From a virus (lineage: Duplodnaviria; Caudoviricetes), in the IMG/VR virus record IMGVR_UViG_3300009085_000025, positions 17,232-81,231 of that record: a stretch of 64,000 nt of DNA. One strand, written 5' to 3'. Positions 8,038 to 14,050 of this stretch are shown here, one piece after another. A program made the position numbers and the translations under genes. Position 1 is the stretch's first letter; every line of letters begins with the position of its first letter. A model generated the notes under the pieces. It saw only the letters and a list, made by a program, of their open reading frames with translations, was not told where the DNA came from and did no database searches.

Positions 8038-8597
8038 TGTTCCTCCTTTACTATAAATTCCTTGTGATTTAATTGTTTCAAAACTTCTTCTGTAAAAACT
8101 CTCCACTGTCTAAGGCGGTGGGTTTTTCTTTGCCAGTAAATATTTTTTATTGTTTTATAAGACAGCATCCAAATTCTACGCTGAAGAAAACCTTCTGGCA
8201 AATTGTTTTTGATATCTTCAAACAAGCCATTCTTTACTTCTACTGATTTTTCTGATTGATAAAATTTTATAAGCTCATTTATTTTATTCAGTGTTTCTTC
8301 AAAAACAGGTAGTTCAAAATCATCTTGAGTCAACAATCTTTTTGTGATTGTATGCATCGTGCTTTCACTCTGCTTCGTTGTTCCCACCCTATACGTGTCA
8401 GCTTCCGACCACCAATATCTCGGAGCATCGACACTCCAGTATGTAATGATGCTTTCTAGGAATTTATCTTCGCCTGATAATCCGTGGGCATATTTTTTGA
8501 AAATTTGTTTTGCTCTTTTTGGATTTGAATTGTAGCTAAGTGAAAATCCAAGAGAACTTTCTTCCAAACCATATTCTGACAATTTTTCTATTTTCAT
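8034..8597 (-). CDS. ThyX-like (flavin-dependent thymidylate synthase-like) phage protein
   Basis: APRYWWSEADTYRVG, QSESTMH, LPEGFLQRR, QRKTHRL motifs of the phage ThyX-like family. Confidence 0.6.
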   Translation of the reverse strand: MKIEKLSEYGLEESSLGFSLSYNSNPKRAKQIFKKYAHGLSGEDKFLESIITYWSVDAPRYWWSEADTYRVGTTKQSESTMHTITKRLLTQDDFELPVFEETLNKINELIKFYQSEKSVEVKNGLFEDIKNNLPEGFLQRRIWMLSYKTIKNIYWQRKTHRLRQWRVFTEEVLKQLNHKEFIVKEEQ

Positions 8598-8638
8598 TTT
8601 ATATCAACGATGTTTCCTCCGTTTCAGATTTATTATAG

Positions 8639-8709
8639 CACCGATTAATTGAATCGAACAATTACCTCACCCTCCAAAGGGGCGCGTACTGCCGTTGTAC
8701 GAAATCGGT
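8639..8709 (-). tRNA. tRNA-Gln(UUG), no encoded CCA
   Basis: ACCGATT/AATCGGT acceptor, GTAC/GTAC D stem, CGCCC-CTTTGGA-GGGTG anticodon arm, AATTG-TTCGATT-CAATT T arm, G73. Confidence 0.85.
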
Positions 8710-8716
8710 ATTTCAT

Positions 8717-8809
8717 TTAGGAGCCAATTTGAAACAAAAAGTAAATCAACCAACAAAAAGAAAAAACCACAACTCCAAATTGAATATTCATTTTTAAAAA
8801 CTGTCGCAT
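8717..8809 (-). CDS. 30-aa hydrophobic peptide inside tRNA cluster
   Basis: MRQFLKMNIQFGVVVFSFCWLIYFLFQIGS; upstream AGAAAGGG. Confidence 0.4.
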   Translation of the reverse strand: MRQFLKMNIQFGVVVFSFCWLIYFLFQIGS

Positions 8810-8842
8810 GTTATAATAAAACCCTTTCTATTTTTTATTCAG

Positions 8843-8924
8843 TGGGCAATGCTAGATTCGAACTAGCACATCCAAGGAAAGTGATTTACAGTCACCCGCG
8901 CCTAGCCATATGCGCCTATTGCCC
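8843..8924 (-). tRNA. tRNA-Tyr(GUA), no encoded CCA
   Basis: GGGCAAT/ATTGCCC, GGTGA-CTGTAAA-TCACT, long variable arm, GCTAG-TTCGAAT-CTAGC. Confidence 0.9.
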
Positions 8925-8925
8925 A

Positions 8926-9079
8926 AGTGAAGGTTACTCTCAACCTACAAGCCTCACAAAGACCCTACCAGTGGAAGTTATAAGGAAGTGTATTCTCATA
9001 CGCTTCACTCATAACCATGTGACATCCGGTATTCACTCCGCTTCTCATCGGGCGTGAGATGCCCAACGGAGATGTCTTG
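8926..9079 (-). ncRNA. structured ncRNA candidate filling the tRNA-Arg/tRNA-Tyr spacer
   Basis: Hand folding: long hairpin GGUUAUGAG/CUUAUAACU plus GAAGCGUAU-GAGA-AUACACUUC, nested hairpin with possible pseudoknot, 3' hairpin AGGUUG/UAACCU. Confidence 0.55.
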
Positions 9080-9152
9080 TACGCTACCTGAGACTCGAAC
9101 TCAGACTCTACGGATTAGAAGTCCGTTGCTTTGTCCATTAAGCTAGTAACGC
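9080..9152 (-). tRNA. tRNA-Arg(UCU), no encoded CCA
   Basis: GCGTTAC/GTAGCGT, ACGGA-CTTCTAA-TCCGT, CTGAG-TTCGAGT-CTCAG, A20. Confidence 0.9.
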
Positions 9153-9175
9153 ATGTCAACCTCAAGTTATAACTA

Positions 9176-9205
9176 ATTATACCATACCTGACCATCCGCT
9201 GTCAA
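9176..9205 (-). promoter_or_regulatory. sigma70-type promoter for tRNA-Arg cluster
   Basis: TTGACA-18 bp-TATAAT with TGG extended -10. Confidence 0.8.
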
Positions 9206-9216
9206 GTAGCAATATT

Positions 9217-9811
9217 TTATGACTTTTGGTATACAACATGAGCTTCATGTAAGAATCTTTGGAAATGAACAGGAAGAGATTCCCAGTTTTCTCTTTCAGA
9301 TGCCCAAGCCAACAAGCTACCGAAAATTTCTGACTTAGCAATAATTCTGGCACATGCTTGTCTTGTATTCAACTGCGATATAGTCATCAACCTTCGAATA
9401 TCTCCCCTAGCACGATAATATTCTTTTGTATCAGTATATTCTTGTTCAGCCCAACTCAAAAGAGAATATAAATACTTCAAATCAAATTCCGGCATTTCTC
9501 TGTTGAAACGAGCATGTTTCATCATAAAAAGTGGAATATCCAAATATTTTTTCTTTGGTAAAGGCATGGGATTTATGTAATCCATATTATTGTCTCCTGA
9601 TATTTTTACTGAGTTTCAAAAAAAATGTTTCCCAAAATATAATTATAATATACCAATACAAATATCTTAATATGTTCACGCGTTCATATCCTAAACAATA
9701 TGAACAACTGCTATGTTCCACTCCTCCTAGCCCTCGATAAAGAATGGCTTCGAAATGGTATCCTTCACCGTGGCATTCCGGACATCTAAAGCCTGTCATA
9801 TGAGGTGGCAT
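9217..9811 (-). other. two hypothetical CDS (9217..9585; 9587..9811 with CPEC/CSYC Zn finger and C-terminal TM)
   Basis: ORF track, RBS GGAG, DnaJ-like CxxCxGxG repeats in the second. Confidence 0.5.
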
Positions 9812-9955
9812 ATGTCAGTAATCCAGACATAAAAATAGATACAAATGCTAAAGTTGTATCTGTGATTGCGACATTGATGGCGGTAGATGCGATAGGTGTA
9901 ACAAAGCTCATTGTAATATAAAAAACCACAGACAACAAAACAAATTTTAGAATAG

Positions 9956-10456
9956 TCATTGTATTACATCCTTTTTATTTTCTATTGAGAATATTTTTTC
10001 AGCTTTACTGGCAAAAACATAATAGCTAAACAGATAATTCAATCTATTACTCCCCTTGTCTCCACCGTTCACGATTCTGTGATACAGTTTGTTTTCAATC
10101 ATCTTCAACAACACGGATTTTTTAATAAAAATATATCTTACTCCGTGTCGAGTGTGTGCCTTGACAGCATATAAATCAGCTTCGCTAGTTGATATACCGG
10201 ATGGGTTCCCCCTGTAGCTAAATTCTATTCCGATATTTCCAGTTTTCAAACATCTGAAGTCTTCTTTACATTCAATCTTCAGAGTTTTTTTATTTCCGCA
10301 TTTTACGAGGATGTCATACTTCTTTGTTCTTTCAAAGTGAGTGGTTTTCCATCCAAATTGCTCGTAAACAAATTTCGCAATCTCTTTTTCTGTGACGATT
10401 GCTACTTTTAAGTCCCTGCGAAATTCACGATAGTTATTATCTTTTACTTCATCCAT
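9956..10456 (-). CDS. PD-(D/E)xK nuclease-fold protein
   Basis: YDILV...IECKED...TGNIGIEF...SGISTSEAD pattern. Confidence 0.6.
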   Translation of the reverse strand: MDEVKDNNYREFRRDLKVAIVTEKEIAKFVYEQFGWKTTHFERTKKYDILVKCGNKKTLKIECKEDFRCLKTGNIGIEFSYRGNPSGISTSEADLYAVKAHTRHGVRYIFIKKSVLLKMIENKLYHRIVNGGDKGSNRLNYLFSYYVFASKAEKIFSIENKKDVIQ

Positions 10457-10473
10457 ATTATTATCTCCGATAA

Positions 10474-11736
10474 TTAAAATGGAAATTCGTCCAAAGATGA
10501 TTCATTTAAAAAATTGAATTTTAGCGATTGTTGAACAAGCAATTCTTCTTCTTCTTTTCCTACGACACGTATAACTCTCGCCTTAGAAAGAATAACACTA
10601 TCAGTTATCAATGATGCGTGTTGTTTGATTGCTACTGGTTCACATTCGATTAGAACTCTCTTATTTACATTGCCATAGCTATTTCGAATTGAATGAACTC
10701 CACTAATATATGAAAACCAAAGTCCAAACCTATTATCTTCTGCTATCTCTCCAATTTTATATGTAAATTTCGGAGTGTGTTGTGAGTGAAGACTTCCATC
10801 ATCTTCCATTACAACATATTTATAAACAAGGTCGGAGTTGACACTTACGTGTGTTACGTCATCGGAAAACAATTGTCTTTTGTCCGTCTGGATAACATTC
10901 CAGAAGCCATCAATTTTGGTAAACAACTTGTTTGGAACCACACTAAAAGAAAAAGCCGTTGGTTTTATTCCGGTAAGTTTTACAACCAATTCAAGATAAT
11001 CAGGAATATGAATGGCAGGAGTTGTTTTGTTGACATTTGACACATATTGAAATTCAAAATCGGTCAAGGCTTCCATCAGCGTGTCCATGGAGAAGTCTTT
11101 CTTCTTATTTTCTTCTGTGATGATATTCGCCAGAGAAGTTCCATAAAACTTTCCGAATTGTCTCTGCGCTTCTTCCCAAGAAGTAAGATTCATAGACATG
11201 AGAGAGATAATAAGTCTCATATATTGCATCTTTGAAATTGAATATCCTTCAGTTCGATATTTATCAACACGTAAAGCAGAAATAATCGGAAACATTGTTT
11301 TCGGATTATAGTTCAAAACGCGCTGTGAATTATGCTGAAAGAATTCATCATGTAAAACAAATTCATCCGTGTCGGTTAGATACGCTCCCATGACACACGT
11401 AAAATCAAATTTTTCAAATAGCTTTTCTATATCAGAGAAATAATCAATCACAATAAATTGAACCACTGTTTCGTCAGATTTTATCATGATTGATTTGTCG
11501 GTATAATCAAAAATGATGTCAGATGTTCCCTTGATAGCCATGAGTGCACAAAACAAATCTTTTGGTGTTCTAAAATATACATCCACATCCGCTTCTAGTA
11601 TTGACCTGTTGGTAAATACTCTGGATACAACACCTCCGGCAATGATTGCTCTAGATTCAATCAGGGCTTCCATCATAACATCGCTCAACATGCTTGCAAT
11701 TTTCTGTGCTTCGACAGGATATTTCTTTGTAATCAT
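10474..11736 (-). CDS. Pol-beta superfamily nucleotidyltransferase (CCA-adding/poly(A)-polymerase-like) with extra C-terminal domain
   Basis: IAGG...DVDVYF catalytic motif, FDFT, LRVDKYRTEGY; lies between the two tRNA clusters. Confidence 0.7.
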   Translation of the reverse strand: MITKKYPVEAQKIASMLSDVMMEALIESRAIIAGGVVSRVFTNRSILEADVDVYFRTPKDLFCALMAIKGTSDIIFDYTDKSIMIKSDETVVQFIVIDYFSDIEKLFEKFDFTCVMGAYLTDTDEFVLHDEFFQHNSQRVLNYNPKTMFPIISALRVDKYRTEGYSISKMQYMRLIISLMSMNLTSWEEAQRQFGKFYGTSLANIITEENKKKDFSMDTLMEALTDFEFQYVSNVNKTTPAIHIPDYLELVVKLTGIKPTAFSFSVVPNKLFTKIDGFWNVIQTDKRQLFSDDVTHVSVNSDLVYKYVVMEDDGSLHSQHTPKFTYKIGEIAEDNRFGLWFSYISGVHSIRNSYGNVNKRVLIECEPVAIKQHASLITDSVILSKARVIRVVGKEEEELLVQQSLKFNFLNESSLDEFPF

Positions 11737-11742
11737 TTTTTA

Positions 11743-12180
11743 TTATTTCCTTATTTTATTGATTAATATATGCATATGTTCTTTAAACATATTATCATAC
11801 AAATTATTTAACTCGTAATATTTTTCCCACAGTTCATTCTGTCTATCAGAATGTCTTCCGTTGTCTTCGGGGCTACCAATCTGATAAAGAATATCAATCA
11901 TTCGAGAGTTGACTTGCATTCTCTCGGTTGAAAAATCTCCCTCAAGCTCACTCCAATAATCCGGATTGTATCCACTAATAAACATAACTATCTGTCCAAA
12001 TAAAAACAGAAGAATAAATGCAATCCCAAGTCCTAAAATCATAGATAAAGCCACTTCTGAAATAACGATGATATCTTCCAACAAATAAAACTCCTTTCTT
12101 TTTATATTATAAAAGCCCACCGCAGTTGAACGAGTTCTGCAAACGATTTCGGAATTTCTCCTAAAAATAATATCGAGCAT
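11743..12180 (-). CDS. membrane protein
   Basis: one hydrophobic helix (IIVISEVALSMILGLGIAFILLFLFG). Confidence 0.5.
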   Translation of the reverse strand: MLDIIFRRNSEIVCRTRSTAVGFYNIKRKEFYLLEDIIVISEVALSMILGLGIAFILLFLFGQIVMFISGYNPDYWSELEGDFSTERMQVNSRMIDILYQIGSPEDNGRHSDRQNELWEKYYELNNLYDNMFKEHMHILINKIRK

Positions 12181-12271
12181 ATTTTACATGGGTCGATTTC
12201 TTATTCTTGTTTGATGAGCTTTCATAATACAAAAACGTGAAATAAATAATTTTACTAATTTTTATTACTTG

Positions 12272-12343
12272 TGCATCCCTTGGGGGTCGAACCCAAAACC
12301 TGCGGATTAAAAGTCCGTTGCTCTGCCATTGAGCTAGGGAAGC
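12272..12343 (-). tRNA. tRNA-Lys(UUU), no encoded CCA
   Basis: GCTTCCC/GGGATGC (U3-U70 mismatch), CGGA-CTTTTAA-TCCG, TTGGG-TTCGACC-CCCAA. Confidence 0.85.
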
Positions 12344-12346
12344 ATT

Positions 12347-12493
12347 TTCTTGACTATCTCAGGTCGCTCTGTTTGACAATTCTCGTCACCGTAGATTAGC
12401 TCTATCGGCTTGGTTCTCTTGGATACTATCCATTGTGTCCGACTTGTCATACGTCCTTAAGTCAACGAACAGCCCTCAATGAACAGTCAAGAA
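12347..12493 (-). ncRNA. rod-like ncRNA candidate filling the tRNA(CAU)/tRNA-Lys spacer
   Basis: Ends pair over 12 bp (UUCUUGACUGUU/GAUAGUCAAGAA); inner helices GCUGUU, UUGAC/GUCAA, GUCGG/CCGAU; internal bubble. Confidence 0.55.
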
Positions 12494-12494
12494 G

Positions 12495-12567
12495 TGGGCG
12501 CGACAGGATTCGAACCTGTGACCAAGGAATTATGAGTTCCCTGCACTAACCACTGTGCTACGCACCC
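12495..12567 (-). tRNA. tRNA with CAU anticodon (Ile2 or elongator Met), no encoded CCA
   Basis: GGGTGCG/CGCGCCC, GGGAA-CTCATAA-TTCCT, ACAGG-TTCGAAT-CCTGT; lacks initiator features. Confidence 0.88.
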
Positions 12568-12607
12568 AACTTGCTTCTACATATGTAGAAGTAAGTATTT
12601 ATACATA

Positions 12608-12637
12608 AGTATATCATGAAACACATGTCTGTGTCAA
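12608..12637 (-). promoter_or_regulatory. sigma70-type promoter for second tRNA cluster
   Basis: TTGACA-18 bp-TATACT with TGn. Confidence 0.75.
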
Positions 12638-12741
12638 ATTACTTTGGAAGCAAGATGAGTAATTTCAAAACACCAGACAATATTACAATCAAAACGGCGG
12701 GTACGACAAAAGATTTTATATCACTACTTGTTTTCACTTTG

Positions 12742-14050
12742 CTAATCCTTTTTTTCCGGTCTAATTCTATATTGAAAACTTCCTCTACGACCATCATTAT
12801 TTATGGAAACTAAAGCCATCAACGCAGACTTTCTCGAATCGTATGTTTTGTATTTATGCCACTTTTGCCAAGATGGAAAAGGCAAGTCTCCCATATAACG
12901 TGTTTCAATAACAATTTTTTGCTTCTTCTTTGGTGGTTTTGATTTTTCACAGGGTAAATTTGTTTCAGAAGGTTCTAGGCATTCTCTTTCACAATTTCCA
13001 CAGATATATCCTTCTAATTCATCTGTCACCCATGTCGGTATCCATATATGTTCCATGGTAGAATTATCCTTTTAACTTAGTAACAAATAAAATCCATAAA
13101 AAGACAGGGCAATACTTCCAAGTCCAAGTCCGAATAAAAGACTCGCGTCTTTGAAACCAATCACCCTGATTGCTACAAAATATCCTAACACGAGCGGGGA
13201 TGATACAAAAATTATCGCTAATATATTCATTTTATCCTTTCTATGAAATAGATGTTTTATGGTATTCCTGCAACACTCTTATCTCTATTATGTTAAATAA
13301 TACGTGTTCGTGTTTTAGTATCAGTTTTTTATATTGTTCAGTGGCATAATCTAATTCGTCGCAGGACATTATGCTATGATAATCATTACAATCATTTCGT
13401 TGAAATGCTGTCTCTGGTGAATCCCAAAACTCCACTTCATACCTTGTTCTCAATGTCTCCATTTGATAATTCCTCTCTAAATAAAAAGCTGATTTTATTC
13501 ATCTCTCGGTCTACCAAACATAACCAAAAAAATTAGACCTACAATTAAAATCGAAAATATATTTGGTATCCATGCTCCCATGCTTGTCAAAATTTCCATC
13601 CACCTTGGAAAGAAAGCGTTCAATATTTCTCGTATGGCATACGCAAATGAGCCGATAAGAATTGATATAAAAATAATGAATCCCATGTTGTATCCACTAA
13701 AACTTATCTCTATCATAAACAGCAGAAAATTCCATGCTGCCACCAGCCATATCAAAATGTCCAACGTTGGCGTACTTTTCCTCTGCCTGAAGAAGTCGAA
13801 TCAAATCGGATAAGGATTCTTGTCGAACATTGAAACATCTGACGTAATCTTTATTGCGGTATCTTCCAACAACGATAATTTGAGAACCAGTTCCCTTATA
13901 TCCAATATCGGCATGAACCGTTGTTTTCTCATTCAATTTCTTATGAAGTTCAGCGACATATAGATACATGTCTCTATATTGTTTCTCGTGTTTTGTTGGC
14001 ATATTCCAAACTTGCTTTAGTTGTTCGAATAATTGTCTTATTGTTCTCAC
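12742..14050 (-). other. small hypothetical CDS (12742..13056, 13241..13462, 13495..13764 membrane, 13697..14050)
   Basis: co-oriented, RBS-preceded ORFs. Confidence 0.55.

What the first reader, a model, noticed from the sequence alone, without database searches (positions are those of the whole stretch)
8926..9079. Structured ~154-nt RNA exactly filling the tRNA-Arg/tRNA-Tyr spacer
The whole spacer folds. A three-way junction is closed by AAGAC/GUCUU. Arm 1 is UCCGUU/AGCGGA with inner GGGC/GCCC, whose loop UCUCA can pair with UGAGA. Arm 2 is ACCGG/CUGGU, a 9-bp helix, then a 9-bp helix with one mismatch capped by a GAGA (GNRA) tetraloop. A 3' hairpin AGGUUG/UAACCU follows. tRNA maturation on both sides would release it as a discrete RNA. 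I recognise no known family.
Basis: partly seen in the sequence, partly recalled or inferred. Interest (0 to 1): 0.7.

Follow-up and report, generated by a model that had tools for sequence, protein, structure and literature searches.

The report
Orphan small RNA inside phage tRNA operon
The 154 bases between two phage tRNA genes most likely encode a folded "passenger" RNA that tRNA processing cuts out, as with the long-known but unexplained small stable RNAs of phages T4 and T5; no relative of it was found, so conservation of its fold cannot be tested.

Summary
The spacer is real, on the minus strand: tRNA-Arg(UCU) 9152-9079, spacer 9078-8925, tRNA-Tyr(GUA) 8924-8842. A 12/12 consensus sigma-70 promoter sits just upstream at 9205-9176.

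It is a G+C island (47% against 35% for the genome). It folds better than shuffles (-51.6 kcal/mol, z -2.9, 0 of 200). Eleven of its 55 pairs are G-U, so the fold belongs to the transcribed strand. The next spacer (Tyr to Gln) has 25% G+C and z +1.2.

Its closing helix AAGAC/GUCUU does not (ensemble probability about 0; -39.5 kcal/mol overall). The favoured fold is a 5' hairpin plus a four-way junction.

No Rfam family, tRNA, tmRNA or ribozyme matches. No homologue appeared in 100 whole related phage records, about 260 loci, or four exact-word scans of three public collections.

The nearest relative keeps the same promoter, tRNA-Arg and tRNA-Tyr, but the two tRNAs lie 2 nt apart. The RNA is therefore an accessory indel. 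Covariation cannot be tested.

The kind is known: T4 rnaC/rnaD and the T5 stable RNAs. This scan has also noted similar passenger RNAs in other phages. A new orphan member, of modest interest.

The parts
9176..9205 (-). Sigma-70 promoter (TTGACA, 18 nt, TG-n-TATAAT) that drives the tRNA-Arg / RNA / tRNA-Tyr unit
   Evidence: 12 of 12 consensus matches with TG. It is the best site in 8300-12900. It aligns with the promoter of the orthologous operon in L170.
9079..9152 (-). tRNA-Arg(UCU). No CCA is encoded (discriminator A, then C, then AAGAC). Its 3' maturation would set the 5' end of the RNA.
   Evidence: 67.5 bits. 72% identical to the L170 tRNA-Arg.
8925..9078 (-). The spacer RNA itself (154 nt; 155 nt if C9079 is included)
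9043..9072 (-). 5' hairpin (RNA 7-36): 11 bp with a one-base bulge and the 7-nt loop AUCUCAC
   Evidence: The 40-nt 5' part (RNA 1-40) folded alone gives z -2.8.
9033..9038 (-). 5' strand (GAGUGA, RNA 41-46) of the helix that closes the four-way junction
   Evidence: pair probabilities 0.78-0.95. One search gives the helix list.
8966..9031 (-). Arm I (RNA 48-113): UACCGG/CUGGUA, an internal loop, then a 9-bp helix, a one-base bulge, and a 9-position helix (8 pairs plus a C-A mismatch) capped by GAGA (8994-8997)
   Evidence: (probabilities 0.87-1.0).
8949..8965 (-). Arm II (RNA 114-130): a 7-bp hairpin rich in G-U pairs, with a 3-nt loop.
   Evidence: probabilities 0.56-0.97.
8931..8946 (-). 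Arm III (RNA 133-148): AGGUUG/UAACCU with loop AGAG. It runs straight into the 3' strand of the closing helix.
8925..8930 (-). 3' strand (UCACUU, RNA 149-154) of the closing helix. It ends exactly at the RNase P site of tRNA-Tyr.
   Evidence: Competition with a UCACUU word in tRNA-Tyr appears in the precursor fold.
8842..8924 (-). tRNA-Tyr(GUA), long variable arm, no CCA encoded. RNase P cleavage at its 5' end would make the 3' end of the RNA.
   Evidence: 70% identical to the L170 tRNA-Tyr.

Best explanation
The spacer is an accessory, lineage-specific small-RNA gene carried as a passenger inside a phage tRNA operon.

Inferred steps:
- Host RNA polymerase starts at the consensus promoter (9205-9176) and transcribes tRNA-Arg(UCU), the 154-nt RNA and tRNA-Tyr(GUA) as one precursor.
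- RNase P, cutting at the 5' end of tRNA-Tyr, makes the 3' end of the RNA.
- 3' maturation of the CCA-less tRNA-Arg (RNase Z type) makes its 5' end.
- The released RNA of about 155 nt would resist exonucleases, because its 3' end is buried in a helix.

Shown by folding:
- It forms a 5' hairpin plus a four-way junction with a long GNRA-capped arm.

Its job is unknown. By analogy with the stable RNAs of T4 and T5, it most likely acts in trans as a protein-binding or decoy RNA during infection. It is not needed to process the flanking tRNAs, because the nearest relative manages with 2 nt between them.
For: - Same strand as both tRNAs and exactly filling the gap between them.
- A 12/12 promoter with TG lies just upstream of tRNA-Arg, and no terminator-like site lies on that strand.
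- Fold z is -2.9 for the whole RNA, -3.2 for the 3' domain and -2.8 for the 5' hairpin.
- 11 of 55 pairs are G-U, and the transcribed strand is 9 kcal/mol more stable than the other strand.
- G+C is 47%, in the top 1.8% of genome windows. The next spacer (Tyr to Gln) has 25% G+C and z +1.2.
- A second spacer of about 150 nt (12344-12494) has the same layout behind its own 11/12 promoter.
- In the tRNA clusters of 11 related phages, spacer lengths are bimodal: mostly 1-20 nt, plus a class of roughly 85-220 nt, most of them G+C-rich and folded.
- T4 has rnaD and rnaC directly downstream of its tRNA-Arg. T5 has eight annotated RNA features of unknown function in its tRNA region.
- These T4 and T5 RNAs give fold z values from -0.7 to -4.6, so this RNA is within their range.
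- T4 RNAC and RNAD are still described as of unknown function (PMC9697503).
Against: - No homologue was found, so there is no covariation and no evidence of purifying selection.
- The orthologous operon in L170 (promoter 78%, tRNA-Arg 72%, tRNA-Tyr 70% identical) has the two tRNAs 2 nt apart. The element is dispensable and may be a recent insertion whose G+C reflects its origin rather than selection.
- A z of -2.9 is moderate.
- There are no expression data, and the phage is uncultured.
- The closing helix reaches position -1 of tRNA-Tyr, which could hinder RNase P. In the precursor fold it competes with a tRNA-Tyr segment.
Confidence: 0.5

Rival explanations
1. Neutral insertion or remnant. 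The 154 nt are a recently acquired or decaying piece of DNA, such as a captured fragment or a wrecked tRNA, with no function of its own. It is transcribed and discarded as an inter-tRNA spacer.
For: - Absent from the orthologous operon of the nearest relative.
- An orphan in every search.
- The region between the nucleotidyltransferase gene and the tRNAs is plastic: this phage has four extra small ORFs there.
Against: - No trace of a tRNA: RF00005 gives nothing at E<=10, and ARAGORN finds nothing at relaxed thresholds or with introns allowed.
- The fold is strand-specific and G-U rich, and beats shuffles in both domains.
- Its composition is unlike the neighbouring AT-rich, unstructured spacer.
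Confidence: 0.27
2. Cis-acting processing element. The long, nearly perfect hairpin (RNA 63-103, about 18 bp) would be an RNase III-type or other nuclease entry site, or an insulator that separates the folding of the two tRNAs. The RNA would have no role after cleavage.
For: - A coaxial hairpin of about 18 bp with one bulge and one mismatch. From my own knowledge, this resembles phage RNase III sites.
- It sits between two RNAs that must be separated.
Against: - The relative L170 has the same two tRNAs only 2 nt apart.
- Most inter-tRNA spacers in related clusters are 1-20 nt.
- The 5' hairpin and the four-way junction would be superfluous for this role.
Confidence: 0.1
3. Small mobile or catalytic RNA element, such as a self-cleaving ribozyme or a mini-intron-like insert, that inserted precisely between two tRNA genes.
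For: - A precise indel relative to L170.
- A related phage carries a tRNA gene with a 132-nt insert in the anticodon loop.
- A homing-endonuclease-like ORF lies next to the L170 tRNAs.
Against: - No ribozyme or intron family matches, even at E<=10.
- No second copy in the genome.
- No flanking repeats.
- No copies in 100 related records.
Confidence: 0.06
4. Member of the same family as the neighbouring spacer RNA (12344-12494; a kink-turn handle under a variable domain), or a Y-RNA/YrlA-like partner of a Ro-type protein.
For: Same size, same layout (promoter, tRNA, RNA, tRNA) and the same genome.
Against: - The motif pair UGAGGGC ... CCUGA with a terminal stem is shared by the neighbour RNA and L251:899-1019 but is absent here. 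A kink-turn scan finds only weak or self-overlapping candidates.
- No significant alignment to the neighbour RNA (p about 0.2), and the covariance model does not hit it.
- No Y-RNA hit in Rfam.
- No TROVE gene in the record.
Confidence: 0.04
5. It encodes a 27-residue peptide (ATG at RNA 31, stop at RNA 112-114).
For: An open frame exists.
Against: - No Shine-Dalgarno sequence lies upstream (the preceding bases are CACGCCCG), whereas other scan notes on this genome describe AAGGAG as the usual ribosome-binding site.
- The start codon is buried in the 5' hairpin.
- The frame lies between two tRNAs.
Confidence: 0.02

Closest known systems
Phage T4 small stable RNAs rnaD (species 2, 119 nt) and rnaC (species 1, 139 nt)
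   Same: - They lie on the tRNA strand directly downstream of a tRNA-Arg (1 nt, then 6 nt apart).
- Similar size, no ORF, and function still unknown.
- The predicted rnaC fold is also multibranched.
   Different: - No sequence or structure homology: the covariance model scores at most 7.5 bits, E 0.24.
- rnaC carries a true tRNA T-arm (GGGUUCGAAUCCC), which this RNA lacks.
- In T4 the RNAs end the cluster. Here the RNA is bracketed by tRNAs on both sides.
Phage T5 stable RNAs (RNAI, RNAIII, RNAIV, RNA1, RNA2, RNA2H, RNA3, RNAX; GenBank AY543070)
   Same: - RNAs of 100-170 nt packed end to end with tRNA genes behind early promoters.
- Annotated as stable RNA with unknown functions.
- RNAIII and RNAIV fold as multibranch structures with z about -2.9, the same as here.
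   Different: - No homology: the best covariance-model hit in the 14-kb region has E 0.057 and lies in a terminator, not in an RNA gene.
- T5 RNA1, RNA2 and RNA3 are annotated as tRNA-like. This RNA has no tRNA signature.
The neighbouring spacer RNA of the same phage (12344-12494) and its relative L251:899-1019
   Same: Same genome, same size class, own consensus promoter, flanked by tRNAs, absent from Rfam.
   Different: That family shares a terminal stem with a UGAGGGC / CCUGA kink-turn-like handle. This RNA has neither the motif nor paired 5' and 3' ends, and shows no significant similarity.
Bacterial and phage Y RNAs (YrlA) with Ro/Rsr
   Same: Structured RNA of 100-150 nt encoded by phages, sometimes within tRNA clusters (scan notes).
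   Different: No Rfam Y-RNA hit, no tRNA-like T-arm, and no TROVE protein gene in the 81-kb record.

Membership tests
Phage tRNA-cluster stable RNAs (T4 rnaC/rnaD, T5 RNAI/III/IV/1/2): a functional kind, not a homology family | Non-coding stretch of 100-170 nt on the tRNA strand that abuts tRNA genes | tested here: met
   Compare T4 and T5.
Phage tRNA-cluster stable RNAs (T4 rnaC/rnaD, T5 RNAI/III/IV/1/2): a functional kind, not a homology family | Co-transcribed with tRNAs from a phage promoter | tested here: inconclusive
   A 12/12 consensus promoter lies upstream of tRNA-Arg and no terminator-like site lies on the strand. This is a sequence prediction only.
Phage tRNA-cluster stable RNAs (T4 rnaC/rnaD, T5 RNAI/III/IV/1/2): a functional kind, not a homology family | Accumulates as a discrete stable RNA in infected cells | not testable with these tools
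T4 rnaC / rnaD and T5 stable RNAs, as homology families | Detectable sequence-plus-structure similarity | tested here: not met
   Model R1 with filters off: T4 region best 7.5 bits, E 0.24; T5 region best E 0.057, outside any RNA gene. The alignment shows only a 31-nt patch with 21 matches to rnaD.
tRNA-like stable RNAs (T4 rnaC, T5 RNA1/RNA2) | A T-arm with GTTCRANYC followed by an acceptor strand | tested here: not met
   Arm III has the loop AGAG (or GAGAGU) and no T-loop. rnaC and T5 RNA2 do have one.
tRNA or decayed tRNA | A match to the tRNA covariance model, or to ARAGORN at relaxed settings | tested here: not met
   No RF00005 hit in the spacer at E<=10. ARAGORN with -ps80, -i, -mt and -m finds only the three flanking tRNAs.
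Any Rfam 15 family (including hammerhead, twister, HDV-like, 6S, SRP, tmRNA, Y RNA, CRISPR repeats) | A covariance-model match | tested here: not met
   Gathering thresholds and E<=10 on 900 nt. The only hit inside the spacer is a 13.6-bit snoRNA model at E 5.5.
Kink-turn-handle RNA family of the neighbouring spacer (defined only within this scan) | A terminal stem formed by the 5' and 3' ends, plus the UGAGGGC / CCUGA tandem G-A handle | tested here: not met
   The motif scan recovers the neighbour RNA and L251 but not this RNA. The 5' and 3' ends of this RNA do not pair.
Y RNA / YrlA | A Ro (TROVE) protein gene in the genome | tested here: inconclusive
   No PF05731 match in the 81-kb record, but CheckV rates the record only 58% complete.

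The most novel reading that the evidence does not exclude
The RNA is a functional trans-acting decoy, carried with exactly those tRNAs (Arg-UCU, Tyr-GUA) that bacterial anticodon nucleases attack. It would titrate a host tRNA-targeting defence enzyme or a tRNA-processing factor. Together with the neighbouring spacer RNA, it would be one of a large, sequence-diverse class of swappable RNA cassettes that phages insert between tRNA genes so that the host's tRNA-cutting enzymes release them.
Probability: 0.1. Interest if true: 0.7.

Novelty: new member of a known kind. Interest (0 to 1): 0.3.

Why it matters
Small stable RNAs embedded in phage tRNA clusters have been known since the 1970s in T4 and T5, and none has a known function. 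This example adds several points:
- Such RNAs occur in an unrelated, uncultured phage of about 140 kb.
- They can be precise presence/absence differences within an otherwise orthologous operon.
- One genome can carry two unrelated ones, each behind its own consensus promoter.

That pattern suggests interchangeable cargo rather than processing scaffolds. As a single orphan with no conservation evidence, this RNA cannot settle the question on its own.

Tried and rejected
Searches that found no homologue of the spacer:
- blastn (sensitive 'distant' mode) of the 661-nt region against 50,697 phage records: only tRNA-Arg matches.
- blastn and nhmmer of the spacer against 80 viral loci found through the downstream 187-aa protein: nothing.
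- DNA search of five whole related records: nothing.
- Exact-word scans, all empty: a 27-mer and a 19-mer in viral contigs, a 25-mer in metagenome contigs, a 22-mer in genome contigs.
- The search for related loci with the upstream 122-aa protein, and with the nucleotidyltransferase as a single sequence: no relatives.
- A 19-sequence nucleotidyltransferase alignment gave 80 viral and 80 metagenome loci. Few carry tRNAs nearby.
- The single-sequence covariance model R1 hit only itself in 196 loci, 100 whole viral records, 70 kb of tRNA clusters with filters off, and the T4 and T5 tRNA regions.
- Smith-Waterman alignment against 16 other inter-tRNA spacers, including the neighbour RNA: all p > 0.17.

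Readings tested and dropped:
- Antisense target in the phage's own genome: the longest exact match is 11 nt. One 20-nt match at 90% lies inside a coding region. Rejected.
- Kink-turn handle: rejected.
- Hidden tRNA, tmRNA or intron-containing tRNA: rejected.
- Binding-site readings of the enriched UGAG word (TRAP-like GAG/UAG repeats, CsrA-like GGA): by eye, the spacing and counts do not fit. Not followed further.

The contigs of the closest nucleotidyltransferase homologues from the Logan and ENA sources could not be inspected.

Full report
**Where it is**

The window is part of an 81-kb IMG/VR virus record, which CheckV rates 58% complete. G+C is about 35%, and almost all genes are on the minus strand.

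ARAGORN and Rfam agree on five minus-strand tRNAs. The finding lies between tRNA-Arg(UCU) at 9152-9079 and tRNA-Tyr(GUA) at 8924-8842. The spacer is 8925-9078, 154 nt as read on the minus strand. Neither tRNA encodes CCA.

The best sigma-70 match in 8300-12900 sits just upstream of tRNA-Arg, at 9205-9176. It reads TTGACA, 18 nt, TATAAT, preceded by TG, which is 12 of 12. No terminator-like site lies on that strand. On sequence grounds, then, the spacer is transcribed with both tRNAs.

**Is the fold real?**

- The minus-strand RNA folds at -51.6 kcal/mol. Dinucleotide shuffles give -40.5 +/- 3.9 (z -2.89, 0 of 200). Mononucleotide shuffles give z -2.99.
- The opposite strand is weaker: -42.2 kcal/mol, z -2.4.
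- Eleven of the 55 predicted pairs are G-U. The structure therefore belongs to the transcribed strand and is not a DNA palindrome.
- Both halves beat shuffles on their own: the 5' hairpin at z -2.8 and the 3' domain at z -3.2.
- G+C is 46.8%, in the top 1.8% of 154-nt windows of the genome.
- The very next spacer, tRNA-Tyr to tRNA-Gln (132 nt), is the control. It has 25% G+C and z +1.2.

**Which fold?**

These are the inner GGGC/GCCC, ACCGG/CUGGU, the two stacked 9-bp helices with a GAGA tetraloop, and the 3' hairpin.

Two of its helices are not favoured. The closing helix AAGAC/GUCUU has probability about 0.00, and the outer arm-1 register has 0.01. Its full model scores -39.5 kcal/mol, equal to a shuffled sequence.

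The favoured architecture has two parts:
- a 5' hairpin (RNA 7-36, loop AUCUCAC);
- a four-way junction closed by GAGUGA/UCACUU (RNA 41-46/149-154), with a 66-nt arm I, a short arm II, and an arm III that runs straight into the closing strand.

That topology recalls a cloverleaf, but there is no T-loop. In a fold of the whole precursor, the closing helix competes with a UCACUU word inside tRNA-Tyr. Only probing can settle the fold.

The word UGAG occurs five times, against 0.8 expected (p about 5e-4). This is unexplained.

**What it is not**

- No Rfam family matches at gathering thresholds, or at E<=10 on a 900-nt search.
- ARAGORN finds no tRNA, intron-containing tRNA, organellar tRNA or tmRNA in the spacer, even at relaxed thresholds.
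- A 27-codon frame exists, but it has no ribosome-binding site and its start codon is buried in the 5' hairpin.
- There is no second copy and no convincing antisense target in the phage genome.
- It does not belong to the family of the neighbouring 150-nt spacer RNA (12344-12494). I could see that handle, a terminal stem plus UGAGGGC / CCUGA, in the neighbour and in L251:899-1019. It is absent from this RNA. There is also no significant similarity between the two.
- No TROVE (Ro) gene is present in the record.

**Homologues**

None were found. The details are in the Tried and rejected section. In brief, blastn, nhmmer, four exact-word scans of three public collections, and a single-sequence covariance model all returned only the query. 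The model was run over about 260 loci, 100 whole related viral records and 70 kb of tRNA clusters.

The phage itself has no close kin on record.

**The informative comparison**

Metagenome contig L170 (nucleotidyltransferase 48% identical) carries the orthologous operon. It has a promoter and leader 78% identical, tRNA-Arg(UCU) 72% identical and tRNA-Tyr(GUA) 70% identical. Its two tRNAs, however, are separated by 2 nt.

The 154-nt RNA is therefore a clean presence/absence difference. It is not needed to make the tRNAs, and it was either gained in this lineage or lost in the other.

**Context in related phages**

In the tRNA clusters of 11 related phage records, inter-tRNA spacers are bimodal. 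Most are 1-20 nt. A second class runs from roughly 85 to 220 nt, and most of these are G+C-rich and folded. Four of them hide unrecognised tRNAs. Most of the others are non-tRNA structures of unrelated sequence.

Contig L171 has a 140-nt leader with z -7.2 between a promoter and tRNA-Met.

**Comparison with what is known**

- T4 has rnaD (119 nt) and rnaC (139 nt) 1 nt and 6 nt downstream of its tRNA-Arg. They are still "of yet unknown functions" (PMC9697503).
- T5 has eight annotated RNA features of unknown function packed among its tRNAs.
- Their predicted-fold z values range from -0.7 to -4.6. This RNA is as well folded as the validated examples.
- None is homologous to it.
- It lacks the T-arm that makes rnaC and T5 RNA1 and RNA2 tRNA-like.
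- Notes of this scan report similar passenger RNAs in tRNA operons of other phages. The kind has been seen before on other DNA.

**Verdict**

The interpretation, a discrete RNA released by tRNA processing, is the best reading, at about 50%. A neutral insertion is the main rival, at about 27%.

It is a new, so far orphan, member of a known but unexplained kind. Interest is modest unless expression or homologues are shown.

Noticed in passing
L170:5953-6595 (metagenome contig Ga0180080_1000032): The orthologous operon has its TTGACA -35 box in the loop of an 11-bp inverted repeat (GCTACCCCGTA ... TACGGGGTAGC). tRNA-Arg and tRNA-Tyr are 2 nt apart, followed by an ORF with an HNH-like HIDHNPMNN motif.
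   Followed up: partly
L171:40-183: A very stable folded leader of about 140 nt (-58 kcal/mol, z -7.2) lies between a TATAAT box and tRNA-Met(CAU), upstream of a nucleotidyltransferase 46% identical to the window's. It is unrelated in sequence to the RNA studied here.
   Followed up: partly
Rfam shows no intron family there.
   Followed up: partly
L251:899-1019 (minus strand) and window 12344-12494 (minus strand): The two inter-tRNA RNAs share CA(A/U)UGAGGGCU at the 5' side and AGAGCG(G/A)CCUGA at the 3' side, above a 9-12 bp terminal stem. This is a C/D-like kink-turn handle. They belong to one family, and the RNA studied here does not.
   Followed up: partly
L251-L263 (tRNA clusters of 11 related viral records): Inter-tRNA spacer lengths are bimodal: 53 of 113 are 20 nt or shorter, and a second group runs from about 85 to 220 nt. 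Four of the long ones contain T-arm motifs (GGTTCGA) that ARAGORN did not call as tRNAs.
   Followed up: partly
window 8925-9078 (minus strand): UGAG occurs 5 times (0.8 expected, p about 5e-4) and AUGAG 3 times. The hairpin loop CUCAC (RNA 21-25) is complementary to GUGAG (RNA 122-126), a possible pseudoknot that the energy model cannot score.
   Followed up: partly
window 8925-8930 and 8875-8885 (minus strand): The last six bases of the RNA (UCACUU) recur in the 3' strand of the tRNA-Tyr anticodon stem. In the precursor fold, the purine strand GGAGUGAA pairs with the tRNA copy instead.
   Followed up: no
window 9023-9049 versus T4 rnaD 5' end (L250:5142-5172, minus strand): T4 rnaD starts AUGAGAAACCGG...UACCGG...GUC. 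RNA 31-57 here reads AUGAGAAGCGG...UACCGG.UGUC, which is 21 matches in 31 aligned columns. The two stretches fold differently, so this is probably chance.
   Followed up: partly
window 10474-11736 (minus strand): The 420-aa nucleotidyltransferase between the two tRNA/RNA units carries a precomputed Pfam tag PF26128 that is not in the local Pfam copy. Its nearest homologue is only 51% identical. More distant ones occur in Paenibacillus and Clostridium records.
   Followed up: no
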